A stretch of DNA of 64,000 bases from Nitrospirota bacterium. Lineage in GTDB: Bacteria; Nitrospirota; Thermodesulfovibrionia; Thermodesulfovibrionales; UBA6898. Made by a program: the position numbers. The stretch covers positions 1 to 64,000 of the forward strand of contig JAJRYC010000004.1 in the NCBI GenBank assembly GCA_024275975.1. Direction: 5' to 3'. Position 1 is the first letter of the stretch. The number at the start of each line of letters is the position of its first letter. Of this stretch, positions 27,001 through 33,000 are shown piece by piece.

Positions 27001-30000
27001 ATTGTCAATGGTGATATTGCAAGAGATAATCTTCCGGTTCGTGATGGTATCGGTATTGACAGATTTACTGGTGGATCAAGTAGTGGTGCAAAGTTCAGGT
27101 ATCAATATCTGAGTGACAAGACTTTTGAGGCAGAGATTCACATAAGAAACTTCGAACTATGGCAACTTGGACTGCTTGGCTATCTTTTCAGGGATTTCAG
27201 GGAAGAACTCATTCCCGTAGGCTTTGGGAAGACGAGGGGGCTTGGAAAGGTGAAAGGCACGATAGAAGGTCCAAAATTAACATTTTATGGTCTTCAACAC
27301 CCTCGAATTAATAGCACTGACAAGAAGGCTGAGATTAAAGGAAGTGGAAGCCTGTATACCGATGTGGACAAGGGTCACTATTGCTTTGCTACTGAAGCAC
27401 CTGTTGAGATAGATTTCAAAACAGCCTCAAACTCGGCTATAAAGACAATAATTGAGCTAGACGGAGATCAGGCCGAAAGTCTGTTTATGAAAAAATCTCC
27501 AGATTACTGGGCTAACGTAAAGGATGACGGGACCCCAGGAGGCTATTATCTTATAGCACAGGAAGCGAGAAACCATATTGGCGAGGTAATAGAAGATGCC
27601 TGAAATCGGTACAATAATGGCTATTAGTTCTGAGACACTGGATGGACTTATCAATAAAACCTTTTCAGACACTGAAAATACCATCGCTATCCTTGAGAGA
27701 TGGTTCTGCAGGAAAAATGAAAAGCCTGACTTCTTTGACCACATATCAGAATTAACAGACAGCGTGTCTGCGTGGGACAAAGGTAGAATCTTTGATAATA
27801 CCTCTGAGATACGATGGGAACGAGCTGTAGATGGGTTCCATATTGTATGGATAAAGGATGATGGGACTATTCCTCCGGAATGGCAAACAAAGGAACAGAT
27901 TAAGTTGGTTGGTAAAAGAAAGATTTTGCTATGGGGAAAGAGAATTGAAGATAAAGAGCTGTGGTATGAAAAGCAGGTCCCGAGAATACTTAAATATCCT
28001 GTTAGTGGTGAGGGAGAGAGGGTTTATGCATTGTTAAATGAGTATACCCTTATGGATAGATCAACAGTCTATCGATTCAAGGAGGTGATTGCAGAATGAG
28101 TTTTGCAAATCCATATAATTTTGTAAAAATTGACAATGGTGTTGAAAGAAGTAATATTCACAACACTGTCTTTCACAATAAAATACAAGAAAATACTTAT
28201 ACAGGCGTTTTGAAATGCACTTTAAAAACCCTTACAAAAATATTTACTCCTTCAACTTTGCCGGAAGATATTGAAGAAAAAAATATCGGAAAAGATAAAA
28301 ATGGGCGCCCAAGGATACATTACATGTTTAAGTCTTTTTATTATCTTAAAAAAGACAAGCAAAAACAATATGCGATCCCAGGTTCATCTTTGAAGGGTGT
28401 TATTCGTTCTGTAGCAGAAGCGATTTCTAATTCGTGCATGCATGTATTTGACGGTAAATATAAAAATATTTCATACAAAAACAGTGATGCACTGCATAAG
28501 GATAGCTGTATCTTTATAGGTGAGCACGGCAACTTGGCCGAAGGAGTTTGTATTTGTTGCAGTATGTTTGGCATGGCTAATGCAAAAGATACAAAAAAGG
28601 CACCCGAATCAGAAAATAAATTACTTCCAAATGCTTTTAAAGGTAAAATGAGTTTTTCTGATGCTCTGCTACAAAGCACCCCATCATTTGAAACCATCTT
28701 CTCTTTAAAAGAGTTATCTTCTCCAAAACCATACCACAAAACTTTTTATGCAGATAGGCAAACAATTAAAGGTCGAAAGTTTTATTACCATCATTCTGAC
28801 CATGATGTAAAAGATTTGAAGGGTGAAGAAACCCACCGAAACCGTTCAGTCATCCCCTTAAAAAAAGATGCCCTGTTTGAATTTACCATCTCCTATGAGA
28901 ACCTTACAGAGGAAGAATATGGCCTTCTTCTTACAACCCTTGAACTTGAATCAGGACTGGCGCATAAAATTGGAATGGGAAAGCCTCTTGGGCTTGGTAG
29001 TTGCGAGATTGTGGTAACTGAGATAAGAGAATTTTCAAAGAATCGTTACCTGTCTATTTCTAATGCGAGTGCTTGCAAACTTTTCAGTAATGATGCCCTT
29101 AAAGAAAGAAAAGAGACGATAAAAGGTTTATGGGAAAATGGAATACCCAACGATTTGAAATGTATTCTCAGATTGAATAATGGGTTTACAGTGATAAGAT
29201 ACCCCAAAAAAGATACCCGCGACCAATCAAATGATGAATTTACCATATATAAAAATCTCCATCCACCGTGTAGCAGTTTCTCTGATGATGAAAAAACTGG
29301 AGAGGGCATAGTAGCATTTCATACACCGCAGATAAAGCCTGAAAAATCGCATAGAAAAAAGCCAAGCCATGCTGTAGGGAGCCTGGCAGACGTCTTCAAA
29401 GAGGCAATTAAAAATAAAAAGTAGGAGAAAAATGTCTAAATTAATCATCACGACAGTCGGTACATCTACAATAAGCAACAAACTTTTTCCCGAAAGTTGT
29501 AACGTAGAAATCGAAGAATTAAAAAAAGGCAAAGTAATAAATAATTACAATAAAATTATTAATAAGACGGCTACTGCTCTCAAAAACGCGATTGACAACG
29601 ACCGCCCGAATAAACTTCTTTCAGCAGAGCTTGCATCACTGAGAGTATTCAAGCAAAGTCTTGGCATTTCAAAGGATGATACAATTGTCTTCTTTTCATC
29701 AGACTCCGAAGATGGCAGGTTCTGTGCTTCGGTGACCAACCAAGTTCTCAATGAACTTGGTTGGTGTAATGCTCCTGAGCCTGTCGTAATAGAAGGTTTA
29801 AAGACACGAAGAACAGGAAAAGAAGAAGATATATCAAAAAACTTTATGGATGCAGGCTTAAAGAAACTAAAGGAAGAGACAGAGCATATCCTTAGGGGCA
29901 AATTTTTTGATGAAAAATATTTCAACATTACTGGTGGGTTCAAGGCGACTATACCTTTTGTTACTATTCTTGCCTTTGAAAAGAGGATATCGCTTGTATA

Positions 30001-33000
30001 TTTGTATGAGGAGGATAGTGATTTGATAGTGATAGAACCACCAGATAATTTTAATTGCTCTTACGAAATGATGGTGAACAATATGACCCGCCGTATTCCA
30101 CGGCAGATATTGGCACTATGAATATATATGATAATATACAGAAAAAAGTTTACCAATGGCATTCTCAACATCCTGAGGGTATTGAAAGTTTTGTAGATAA
30201 TATAATTAGAGAGAGCAACAACGAGACAGTTCAGAAGCTGAATGATTTTGTTGATTATCTCACTATGTATGGTCTTAAGGATCATCTCCCCAACGCATAC
30301 ATTGACGCGAAATATCACTTAAAAGAAAAAGCGATTGAAAATCTTGATGCTTCCCCTGATGATAAAACAAAGGCCGCATTATATGATTGGCTAAAGATAT
30401 GTATAAATACTCAAAAAGATATAAATTACGATTTTTATTTTGAGAAAAACAACCTGAACAGAGAAGAAGAAGTAAAAACAATACTTTTTGGGAATGGCAA
30501 GCTGCGAAAAATCTTTAAGAACCGAGATTGGCAGATTCGCCTGAAGACCGTAGCGGACTGGTTTTTGAGAAGATACAACGGGGAAATAGCAAGAGACATA
30601 TTGAGATCTCACCAAAATTTTGACTGCTGGGACAATCTCAAGCTATTTTATCCACGTATGATAGTGGCAATAATCGTTGGGCTTTTAGCGTTGATGACAG
30701 GACAGGAGATTTGGGATCTGCCACATAACATTTCTGGTCGTATAACCGGAGTAATCTATGGCCCAATCGCAAAGTTTTGGGGATGGCATTTGTCAGATGC
30801 GTATAGTAATTTAGTAAGTCTTATCGGTTTATTAGTTATTGTTTTCTTTTTTTATGTGCTTTCTGTTCTATACTTGCGCTATGAATGCTACAACATAATA
30901 TTTGACACAAAAGCAGCTGGATGCAGGGCAAGAAAAGTGGGTGGACGAGGGTTATTTGCAAGTTTAATATTGTCGACCTTAATCTGTTATGCAATTGGAC
31001 CTATCTCGGGTACTAAAGAAGTAATGAATCCCGCTACATATTACAGTTGTCAGGCAGGTCTACCCGTTTTTAAAAATATCATTTTCTTTGCCTCTGCCGC
31101 CCTATTTATCGGTATCTTCATGCAGGTCTTCTGGGAGAAGGAAACAATTACGGAGCCGTTATAAACTCGATGTATAAAGTTAACCAACGGCTAAGAGGAG
31201 AGTTGCATAGTTAAAATCCATGCATCACAACCAATGAGACATCAATCTATAATTCAGCCGGAGGCAAGTTATCTGAAAGAAAGCCTTTCAGTATTCAGCG
31301 CTTTAAAGGTTGAATTCACTCTATTCCCTCTTGAGACTATCCATCTCGGTCCTGACGAGGTTAAAGGTGATCGCTGGAGAGGTTGTTTTGGGGAGGCGTT
31401 AAGAAGACGTGCGTGTGCGTTCAGGTGGAAAGAAATCGACTGCAATAAATGCGATGTCAGAGGAGACTGTCTATATCACGGGTATTTTTTCATAGACAGG
31501 CCGCATCCTTATGTAATGCTCCCCGAGCTTGACGGCAAACGGGTATATAATACGGGGGAAAGGATGCTGCTTGAAATGGTGCTTATCGGAGCGGCAGCAG
31601 AGCATGTGGATAAGTTTGTAATGACTGTTGAAGAGATGGGCAGAATGGGTATAGGCGGCGGAAGAGGGAGATTTCGAGTGAACTCCGTGGTGGCAGAGGA
31701 CTCAATTGATGCTTCCGGGTTTTTTGAAGAAGAACCCCTGACTGTTGACCATTGCACCATTGAATTGCTTACCCCGCTCAAAATAAAAGAGGGGATAAAG
31801 GGGCTCAATTATTCCAATCTCTCTTTTGAGACCTTTTTCAGGCTTTTAATAAAAAGAATTATCAACCTTAACAACCTTTACTGCAATGGCAGGGGCTTTA
31901 ACAAGGAGCGGATTGAGCCTGAGAAACAAAACCTTTTTACGTTGGCCGGTGAGATTGAAACAAAAACATATACAGAATGGCGGGACTTCAATAGATTTTC
32001 CTCAAGACAACATAAGTCACTGAAAATTGGGGGACAAATAGGGATAATAAGGTATAATGGAGAAATAGGCCGGTTTTATCCATATCTTAAGATGGGCGAG
32101 GTGCTTGGGGTCGGGCAGCATACAACAAGCGGATTCGGAAGATACCGCATAAGTACCGCCTGAGAAATACGGGTATAAGGTAAAAGTTTAACAATAGGCA
32201 AGTAACAGGGTAAGAATAAAGAGAAAAATCTTTATTTAAATGAATTGTCTCAGGCGGTCGTTGTAAACACAGGCTCTTTGACAACTTAAAAGCTGTTTTG
32301 TGGTATAATTTTCATGGTATGGGAAAGCAAAATGCTATTCAGGCGGAAACCATACTGTATAGGCTTATGTGTCAAGGCTTTACAGGGGGAGGCTTCCGAA
32401 GAGCCGTAGATAAGAGGCAACTGAAACAAATGAAGCTCCTTTATCTTTTTACAGAGCTGTTCGTTTCTTCCGAAGAGCCGTAGATAAGAGGCAACTGAAA
32501 CCTGTAATAGCGGCGTTATAGCTAACTATTAATGCCACTTCCGAAGAGCCGTAGATAAGAGGCAACTGAAACGCAAGGCAAGCGCCAAGCAGCACGGCTC
32601 AAAATCCTGTCTTCCGAAGAGCCGTAGATAAGAGGCAACTGAAACAAAGTTGTAGTCAATCAACCACTCGGTAATCTTCTTCTTCCGAAGAGCCGTAGAT
32701 AAGAGGCAACTGAAACTGGATCCGGGGGTTGGGTCTGAGACTCCAGACCCGGCTTCCGAAGAGCCGTAGATAAGAGGCAACTGAAACCATCGCTTTGTTT
32801 ATACTGGCGTATTCCAAAACATTCTTCCGAAGAGCCGTAGATAAGAGGCAACTGAAACTCGCGCCCGCCGCAATTACGGCTTCAATAACCTCGCAACTTC
32901 CGAAGAGCCGTAGATAAGAGGCAACTGAAACACTATATAAACCAACGCATTCAGCATGATCATTTCACTTCCGAAGAGCCGTAGATAAGAGGCAACTGAA

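What a model noticed while it worked through the whole genome (the two positions that open the first line are those of the whole stretch)
29432..31164. Cam3/Mem_01-like membrane protein paired with a RelE-less CARF7 as sole effector module of a type III-D system
The type III-D operon has an intact Cas10 cyclase motif but no known effector, only a stand-alone CARF7 protein without RelE (g02483) overlapping a gene for a membrane protein with a TPR-like cytoplasmic domain (g02484). Reading: the two form a split effector in which the CARF dimer senses cyclic oligoadenylate and gates the membrane protein through its helical domain. New: it would make Cam3-like proteins effectors in their own right, not Cami1 accessories, and define a two-protein sensor-plus-membrane CRISPR effector.
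Evidence so far: Cas10 GGDD present. g02483 matches CARF7/CARF_RelE models over the CARF part only; g02484 matches Mem_01 at E 9e-4, two homologs at 1e-11 and 8e-9. 26 homologs. CARF7 of about 228-249 aa lies directly upstream in 7 of 7 loci with a full-length match and upstream sequence (Nitrospirota, Dehalococcoidia, Brocadiae, archaeal bins); of the other 6 loci, 3 lack upstream context and 3 match only the C-terminal 20-50 residues. Model pLDDT 84, all-helical, N-domain nearest to TPR folds at Z 8.3.
(Added by a program. Inside this text positions count along the whole contig: contig position 1 is position 1 of the stretch shown here. "Call 12" and the like, gene names such as g00115 and contig names such as C1 are that model's own, and its searches are not shown. 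The text may have been shortened before it was handed on; [...] marks where a part breaks off. The agent that wrote the report below was given it as the finding of a first reader that could run no searches.)

Follow-up and report, generated by a model that had tools for sequence, protein, structure and literature searches.

The report
Two-protein CRISPR sensor and membrane effector
A bacterial CRISPR immune operon ends in two overlapping genes, a signal-binding-type protein with no killing domain and a four-helix membrane protein, that recur together in other genomes and likely work as one two-part weapon in which the first would sense the infection signal and switch on the second.

Summary
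Confirmed. The type III-D operon (Cas10 with GGDD, no HD domain) ends in a 229-aa CARF7 without RelE or wHTH that overlaps a 348-aa protein with four predicted membrane helices, a short form of Cam3/Mem_01 (published form: six). An output-less CARF lies directly upstream in 18 of 19 loci with context (17 CARF7, one HEPN-less Csx1-type), a CARF-RelE in none. Conversely 7 of 7 CARF-only CARF7s, and 0 of 22 longer ones, are followed by Cam3. The window's Cam3 is a natural chimera; CARF similarity tracks its cytoplasmic residues 80-155 (rho 0.74), not its membrane part (0.24). Best reading (0.55): a split, self-limiting cA4 sensor plus membrane effector. Main rival (0.25): the CARF keeps both Crn1 catalytic residues and only degrades signal while Cam3 senses alone. 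Binding is untested; no fusion was found; the TPR match is generic; a second, truncated III-A system could supply effectors in trans. The scan found this pair before on other DNA (e1-2501620). Side finding: the last ~55 nt of cam3 recur detached in front of small toxin-antitoxin and Csx3 cassettes.

The parts
22159..23583 (+). cas10, 474 aa, GGDD cyclase motif, no HD nuclease domain
23596..29424 (+). type III-D core: cas7, cas5/csx10, small subunit (25364-25828, no family hit, assigned by position), cas7, cas7, csx19, cas7 with insertion
29432..30121 (+). stand-alone CARF7, 229 aa: CARF core plus one short C-terminal helix; no wHTH, no RelE; S12 and K171 align with catalytic S12 and K169 of Sis0811
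30118..31164 (+). Cam3/Mem_01-family membrane protein, 348 aa, short form with 4 predicted membrane helices; chimera of two lineages with the switch near residue 145-155
30355..30582 (+). Cam3 residues 80-155, cytoplasmic helices whose similarity tracks that of the partner CARF; candidate docking segment (inferred)
30643..31134 (+). Cam3 membrane domain, hydrophobic peaks at residues 176-194, 232-250, 278-296, 321-339
31108..31164 (+). conserved 3' end of cam3 (last 18 codons and stop) that recurs elsewhere as a detached DNA repeat
20624..20680 (+). detached copy of the cam3 3' end (84% identical over 49 nt), directly before a HicB-like/HicA pair
31234..32163 (+). cas6
32393..34431 (.). CRISPR array, 35-nt repeat; 28 copies listed plus one double-length gap (29 inferred)
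34459..37072 (+). RT-Cas1 fusion and two cas2 genes

Best explanation
The two overlapping genes encode a CARF7 protein without an output domain and a Cam3-family membrane protein, and they likely form one split effector: the CARF dimer would bind cyclic tetra-adenylate made by the Cas10 cyclase, is predicted to dock on cytoplasmic residues ~80-155 of Cam3, and would switch its membrane domain into a state that likely depolarises or arrests the infected cell. The same CARF would then slowly cleave the signal with its intact Crn1-type Ser and Lys, making the effector self-limiting as in Cami1. Shown: gene content, motifs, two-way coupling, co-variation. Inferred: cA4 as the signal (from CARF7 family precedent), contact, direction of control (activation on binding versus release of an apo-CARF inhibitor cannot be told apart) and the membrane outcome (by analogy to Cam1, Cap1, Csx23).
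For: (1) Cas10 has GGDD and no HD domain, and no other effector lies in the operon or its flanks; complete operons L002, L003, L013 and G984 are also built this way. (2) Cam3 to CARF: output-less CARF directly upstream in 18 of 19 distinct loci with upstream DNA, CARF-RelE in 0 of 19. (3) CARF to Cam3: 4 of 4 CARF-only against 0 of 19 longer CARF7 matches in 317 genomes of the order; 3 of 3 against 0 of 3 in 251 genomes of a second class, two of the three (G984, G1061) found blind from the CARF side. (4) The 13 partner CARF7s sit on one side of a 99/96 branch, apart from Cami1-length, Crn1-length and long CARF7s. (5) In G324 the partner is a HEPN-less CARF1/Csx1-type protein, a family listed as sensor rather than CARF ring nuclease, and that locus has separate Csx3/Crn3 genes; G853 also has Cam3 plus Csx3. 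(6) Over 13 pairs, CARF identity correlates with Cam3 residues 80-155 (rho 0.74, Mantel p 0.0002) and weakly with the membrane part (0.24, p 0.06); in the window's chimeric Cam3 the cytoplasmic part stayed with the CARF's lineage while the membrane part was swapped, and contigs of two studies bridge the switch without differences.
Against: Both Crn1 catalytic residues are invariant or nearly so, and CARF-only Crn1 enzymes exist. Membrane effectors often sit beside plain ring nucleases (Cam1, 81% of loci). No CARF-Cam3 fusion: none among 5597 longer candidates (weak test) nor in the Cam3-like proteins held. One distant, split homologue (G078) lies outside any CRISPR locus with no CARF. Cam3 has its own conserved Arg/Trp/Tyr residues (R152, Y153, R180, R270, W339) that could bind a nucleotide. 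The co-variation could be genetic linkage, since the cytoplasmic part lies next to the CARF gene (residues 1-80, nearer still, give only 0.22 but are very divergent); the 13 pairs are related and not independent. Published Cam3 loci were all scored as Cami1-adjacent and I could not inspect them. Five of the seven CARF-only hits in the reverse test were in the query alignments, and for the 5 long CARF7s the flank does not always reach the next gene. A second type III-A operon of the genome is cut off and might supply effectors in trans.
Confidence: 0.55

Rival explanations
1. Cam3 is a self-sufficient membrane effector that binds the cyclic nucleotide itself (as Csx23 does with a non-CARF domain); the CARF7 is only its dedicated Crn1-type ring nuclease, kept next to it by co-transfer.
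For: S12 and K171 match the essential S12/K169 of Sis0811; 229 aa is under the 250-aa cut-off used for ring nucleases and Cam1 has ring nucleases in 81% of loci; conserved Arg/Trp residues at the cytoplasmic face of Cam3; no fusion found.
Against: Ring nucleases are interchangeable across effectors in the published survey, whereas this CARF-only branch was found only before Cam3 (7 of 7); a HEPN-less Csx1-type CARF takes the same place in G324, which has separate Csx3 genes; CARF similarity tracks one Cam3 segment; the soluble domain is poorly conserved.
Confidence: 0.25
2. The two proteins bind, but Cam3 is not the killing part: it anchors or regulates the ring nuclease (or another partner), and immunity comes from Cas7 RNA cleavage and from effectors encoded elsewhere.
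For: Hoikkala et al. propose Cam3 as an accessory protein; the genome has a second, truncated III-A operon; the membrane domain has no recognisable channel fold.
Against: Several complete operons hold nothing else that could respond to cOA; no other CARF, Card1 or SAVED match in the 97% complete assembly (the SAVED search had no positive control); the strongest conservation of Cam3 is in the membrane part, with buried or interfacial charged residues, more than an anchor needs.
Confidence: 0.12
3. The pair is a degenerate Cami1-Cam3 module: the CARF lost RelE, and both genes are decaying leftovers.
For: Detached cam3 ends and one CARF-fragment/Cam3-tail deletion product (P0209) show that the module is often lost.
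Against: Both frames are intact with conserved motifs at 21-58% identity across 17 loci and three subtypes; CARF-only partners form their own branch; 935 protein clusters match the Cam3 profile.
Confidence: 0.04

Closest known systems
Cam3 / Mem_01 (Hoikkala, Graham, White 2024, PMC11229360; equated in Makarova 2025, PMC12669027 Suppl. Table 2)
   Same: Helix-rich N-terminal soluble domain plus helical membrane bundle, directly downstream of a CARF7-family gene in type III loci; Mem_01 profile match in the C-terminal region; function unknown.
   Different: Four predicted membrane helices instead of six; partner has no RelE; III-D (also III-B, III-A in relatives) instead of III-B only; here the only cOA-responsive candidate of the operon.
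Cami1 (CARF-wHTH-RelE; PDB 8phb, 8phj)
   Same: Best sequence and structure match of the CARF core; same family (Crf7); reported to be both sensor and ring nuclease.
   Different: No wHTH or RelE; the protein ends about 25 residues after the CARF core, so it cannot cut mRNA.
Crn1 ring nucleases Sis0811 / Sso1393 (PMC8643638; PDB 7pq2, 3qyf)
   Same: CARF7 fold, catalytic Ser and Lys aligned, short stand-alone protein.
   Different: No wHTH; separate branch from the 270-277 aa CARF-wHTH proteins of related genomes; found only in front of Cam3.
Cam1, Cap1, Chp1, Csx23 (cA4-gated membrane effectors; PMC10808066 and PMC11014256 listings, abstracts of 10.1101/2025.11.13.688252 and 10.64898/2026.08.05.743128)
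   Same: Functional model: cOA sensed by a cytoplasmic domain alters a membrane domain and depolarises the cell.
   Different: All carry sensor and membrane helices in one chain; none is described as a Cam3 homologue in what I saw; here sensor and membrane protein are separate genes.

Membership tests
Cam3 / Mem_01 | Sequence match to the Mem_01 profile | tested here: met
   Window protein E 9.4e-4; 100 of 128 family members scanned match at E <= 0.01 (counted by eye), best 9.1e-16. Weak for the window protein alone, coherent for the family.
Cam3 / Mem_01 | [quoted passage not shown] | tested here: met
   Model all-helical, residues 1-175 before the first hydrophobic peak.
Cam3 / Mem_01 | Six transmembrane helices | tested here: not met
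   Hydropathy gives 4 peaks; 61 of 86 short homologues have 4 and 44 of 67 long ones have 6. Filed as a four-helix variant, not canonical Cam3.
Cam3 / Mem_01 | Directly downstream of Cami1 (CARF-RelE) in III-B loci | tested here: not met
   Upstream gene is CARF7 without RelE and the locus is III-D; 0 of 19 loci have CARF-RelE upstream.
Cam3 / Mem_01 | Direct homology to the 12 published Cam3 proteins | not testable with these tools
   The supplement has no Cam3 sheet or accessions.
Cami1 | CARF7 (APE2256) sensor domain | tested here: met
   PF09651 E 9e-19; Foldseek E 1.5e-12 to 8phb.
Cami1 | C-terminal RelE nuclease | tested here: not met
   229 aa; models matched to residue ~203; only a short helix follows.
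Crn1 ring nuclease | Catalytic Ser (S12) and Lys (K169 in Sis0811) | tested here: met
   S12 and K171 aligned; essential in Sis0811; conserved in partners.
Crn1 ring nuclease | cA4 cleavage | not testable with these tools
   Needs an assay; the Sis0811 paper says structure alone does not separate cleaving from non-cleaving CARFs.
Type III-D CRISPR-Cas with cOA signalling | Cas10 with GGDD, Csx10-type Cas5, Csx19, several Cas7 including an inserted one | tested here: met
   no HD domain.
Fused CARF-membrane effectors (Cam1, Cap1, Chp1) | Sensor and membrane helices in one polypeptide | tested here: not met
   Two ORFs with a stop and ATGA overlap; separate in every locus with context.
TPR domain | Structural match clearly above generic helical repeats | tested here: inconclusive
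   Best Z 8.2, rmsd 4.4 over 133 residues (Bub1 TPR), next 7.6; below the level the tool gives for helical bundles; no Foldseek match at E <= 0.001.

The most novel reading that the evidence does not exclude
Cam3 is the output half of a widespread two-protein CRISPR effector (935 clusters at 50% identity match the profile): a membrane protein that docks exchangeable, output-less CARF sensors (CARF7 or Csx1-type) through one cytoplasmic segment and is gated by cOA in trans, with sensor-docking and membrane modules swapped by recombination; the published 'Cami1 accessory' picture would partly come from RelE-less CARF7s scored as Cami1.
Probability: 0.4. Interest if true: 0.8.

Novelty: new variant of a known kind. 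Interest (0 to 1): 0.62.

Why it matters
Cam3 is listed as 'function unclear' in the 2025 classification and was proposed to be a Cami1 accessory. These loci give it a testable role as an effector, explain a class of cyclase-positive type III operons that seem to hold only a ring nuclease, and would be a CRISPR membrane effector whose sensor is a separate protein; the characterised ones that I saw (Cam1, Cap1, Chp1, Csx23) are single chains. They also warn that short CARF7 genes annotated as Crn1 or Cami1 may be sensor subunits. A two-gene test in a laboratory strain decides it.

Tried and rejected
Fusion search: none among longer proteins or in held homologues. Foldseek of the Cam3 model: no match; ESM Atlas: only hits under 0.8; Pfam: none. 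No Cam3 in viral contigs, plasmids (one long-form query) or 100 nearest relatives. Weak genome hits G059 (E 3e-5, small unrelated-looking membrane protein) and G696 (E 6e-5, frame cut at contig end) were dropped from counts. A shared C-terminal docking motif in partner CARFs was considered (many end in a small Gly-containing motif) but the tails do not align. The detached cam3 end does not fold better than shuffles (z +1.4 to -1.8 over 10 sequences), no Rfam match, no exact pattern match in viral contigs: an attC-like hairpin was rejected. Synonymous identity of the tail is only modestly raised (0.55 vs 0.45; another block reaches 0.56). No RNA holder listed. The Makarova 2020 CARF paper is not held. 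Of the Hoikkala 'cami1' sheet I read parts 29-32 of 28-33; it includes CARF-only lengths (243 aa Desulfobacca, 275 aa Methanosarcina mazei) but cannot be tied to the 12 Cam3 loci. Literature searches for Cam3 with Cami1 or cOA returned only PMC11229360; 'mem01' none; CARF7 with membrane and ring nuclease two papers; searches listed nothing on this pair or the repeat by title or abstract start.
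Full report
Locus. The window holds a type III-D operon at 22159-29424: Cas10 (474 aa, GGDD, no HD domain), Cas7, Csx10-type Cas5, a small subunit without family hit, two more Cas7, Csx19 and an inserted Cas7. Then follow the CARF gene (29432-30121), the membrane gene (30118-31164, ATGA overlap), cas6, a CRISPR array (28 copies listed, one double gap), RT-Cas1 and two cas2. 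None of the 18 ORFs scanned against PADLOC from 22159 to 44860 is another known type III effector. In the whole assembly (96.9% complete) the only CARF7 is this one; Csx1/Csm6, Card1 and SAVED searches found nothing else (the last without a ringing control). However, contig C33 carries cas6, an 889-aa HD-containing Cas10 and csm2 and ends there, and its csm3-5 are not in the assembly, so effectors of that III-A system may be missing. A Thermodesulfovibrionales record (L002) reappears as a genome of the same order, which places the host by inference.

The CARF. It matches PF09651 and CARF7 models to residue ~203. The model (pLDDT 89.9) is a CARF core plus one short helix; its best structural matches are Cami1 and the ring nucleases Sis0811 and Sso1393. 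S12 and K171 align with Sis0811 S12 and K169, which are essential for cA4 cleavage; that paper also says the wHTH is not catalytic and that CARF-only Crn1 enzymes exist (PMC8643638, passages). The residues are invariant or nearly so in 43 partner-type sequences. So the protein probably binds and cleaves cA4; Cami1 does both as well (PMC12409355, passages), so this does not decide between sensor and pure ring nuclease.

The membrane protein. 26 close homologues; a profile of them matches 935 clusters at E <= 0.001. 100 of 128 members scanned match Mem_01, best 9.1e-16, and Makarova 2025 Suppl. Table 2 equates Cam3 with Mem_01, 'function unclear' (PMC12669027, section 8 and supplement part 2). 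Hydropathy splits the family into short forms (61 of 86 with four peaks, as here) and long forms (44 of 67 with six, as published). Conservation lies in residues 91-158 and in the membrane part up to the C-terminus. The model is all-helical (pLDDT 83.7), without Foldseek match; the best of 48,161 chains is a TPR domain at Z 8.2, rmsd 4.4, generic for helical repeats. Hoikkala 2024 found Cam3 in 12 III-B loci, always after 'Cami1', and suggested an accessory role; their set left out incomplete genomes and Cas10 under 500 aa (PMC11229360, passages), which would exclude this locus. Their Cami1 sheet includes proteins too short for RelE, but I cannot link them to the Cam3 loci; the supplement figures were seen as text only.

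Coupling from the Cam3 side. Of 21 metagenome loci, 11 (10 distinct) show the upstream gene, 4 lack it and 6 are detached 3' ends. With the window, L001-L003, G369, G324, G078 (401 genomes; one weak hit dropped) and G984, G1061, 19 distinct loci have upstream DNA. 17 have a CARF7 of 227-272 aa without RelE (one is cut at its 5' end), in III-D and III-B operons, before both four- and six-helix forms. One (G324, III-A) has a 342-aa CARF1/Csx1-type protein without a HEPN motif, plus separate Csx3 genes. One (G078) is a distant split homologue outside CRISPR with no CARF. None has CARF-RelE. The sample is biased towards the window's branch of the family.

Coupling from the CARF side. In 317 genomes of the order, 23 CARF7 matches: 4 CARF-only, all followed by Cam3; 6 of Cami1 length, 8 of CARF-wHTH length and 5 long ones, none with Cam3 in the 1.5-kb flank, which for the long ones may not reach the next gene. 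In 251 genomes of a second class, 6 matches: 3 CARF-only, all followed by Cam3, two of them new; 3 longer ones without. Five of these seven were in the query alignments. In a tree of 31 CARF7 domains the 13 partners lie on one side of a 99/96 branch (comparators from one order only).

Co-variation. The window's Cam3 is a chimera: up to residue ~150 it resembles one group of homologues (63-68% against 26-31% in residues 81-150), beyond it the other. Contigs of two studies span the switch without differences (one may be the source sample). The CARF belongs with the first group. Over 13 pairs, CARF identity correlates with Cam3 residues 80-155 (rho 0.74, p 0.0002), weakly with residues 1-80 (0.22) and with the membrane part (0.24, p 0.06). 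This fits a docking segment; linkage and relatedness are not excluded.

Mechanism. Established for type III systems: target RNA activates Cas10 to make cOA; without HD the operon depends on an effector. Inferred here: the CARF dimer binds cA4, transmits its closing movement to Cam3 residues ~80-155, the membrane domain opens or oligomerises and the cell is depolarised, and the CARF then cleaves the signal (0.55). The rival that Cam3 senses by itself beside a dedicated ring nuclease (0.25) fits the intact catalytic residues, the absent fusion and the 81% ring-nuclease rate beside Cam1, but fits less well the exclusivity, the Csx1-type substitute with separate Csx3, and the segment-specific co-variation. 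An accessory role (0.12) and decay (0.04) are less likely. No complex model could be obtained, so binding is open.

Known and new. Cam3 and CARF7 are known families; this is a four-helix Cam3 variant with a RelE-less partner, failing two descriptive features of published Cam3. Characterised cOA-gated membrane effectors seen here are single chains (Cap1 and Chp1, abstracts and outlines; Cam1 and Csx23, listings, and table rows). My searches found no paper on the pair (Shah 2018 passages); the library lacks most subscription journals and the 2020 CARF classification, and bioRxiv supplements are closed. An earlier AI note of this scan reports the same pair in an archaeon (e1-2501620); it is not independent support.

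Side finding. The last 50-70 nt of cam3 occur detached from any cam3 gene: in the window at 20624-20680, and in L021/L022 (2), L023 (2 clear, 1 at the contig start), L024 (2), L025, L026 and G853 (2, downstream of a real cam3) (22 sequences scanned). Most copies end at or near the stop codon and directly precede a small cassette: nucleotidyltransferase-HEPN, HicB-HicA, a TumE pair or Csx3. A contig in two runs has a copy with a left flank like the window's and a different right flank. Third-position G+C of the last 20 codons exceeds that of the gene body in 15 of 17 genes. Left ends vary and there is no hairpin, so homologous recombination at the most conserved DNA of the accessory region is the likeliest cause (inference).

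Verdict. Observation confirmed, interpretation partly supported and strengthened; new variant of a known kind; interest 0.62.

Noticed in passing
window 20624-20680; L021 10001-10057 and 10843-10912; L023 833-895 and 1309-1375; L024 91-156 and 954-1006; L025 914-979; L026 724-781; L071 16519-16587 and 14719-14776: Detached copies of the cam3 3' end, each in front of small toxin-antitoxin or Csx3 cassettes between the cas operon and cas6/cas1; looks like a recombination hotspot that builds cassette arrays. Not found in my one literature search.
   Followed up: partly
window 15158-21161: Stretch with two nucleotidyltransferase-HEPN pairs, a HicAB pair, a TumE-pair-like remnant, a second 6-repeat CRISPR array with another repeat (18975-19362) and many dispersed repeats; probably what is left of an earlier CRISPR accessory region.
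   Followed up: partly
window 30118-31164: The Cam3 gene is a recombinant of two lineages with the switch in the conserved motif near residue 148-153.
   Followed up: yes
G000 contig C33 5947-10683 (L042): Second type III system (cas6, HD-containing Cas10, csm2) cut at the contig end; two further arrays with a third repeat on C11 and C67 have no cas genes beside them.
   Followed up: partly
L033 9403-10260: Fusion of an adenylate/guanylate-cyclase-like domain with Csx3 in a III-A locus, next to a stand-alone Csx3 and a split CARF_m1 + PIN pair.
   Followed up: no
L034 9725-12257: Distant Cam3-like gene in two frames with a long N-terminal extension, outside any CRISPR locus; the family may serve other systems.
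   Followed up: partly
L032 7994-8536: Small SAVED protein with an N-terminal membrane helix directly after cam3 in a III-D operon.
   Followed up: no
L001 10983-11688: CARF3-type gene, apparently broken at its 5' end, after cam3.
   Followed up: no
P0209 (protein only): 156-aa protein joining a CARF7 fragment to the Cam3 C-terminal tail; likely a deletion product or assembly join.
   Followed up: no
L054, L055, L060, L062, L063: CARF7 proteins of 700-800 aa in III-B/III-D loci of the same order; output domain not examined.
   Followed up: no
window 33471-33794: A block of array units is duplicated at 217 nt distance, giving repeated spacers.
   Followed up: no
window 37125-41253: HerA/TraD-like ATPase (839 aa), sigma-70-like protein and HEAT-repeat protein directly after cas2; link to the CRISPR locus not examined.
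   Followed up: no
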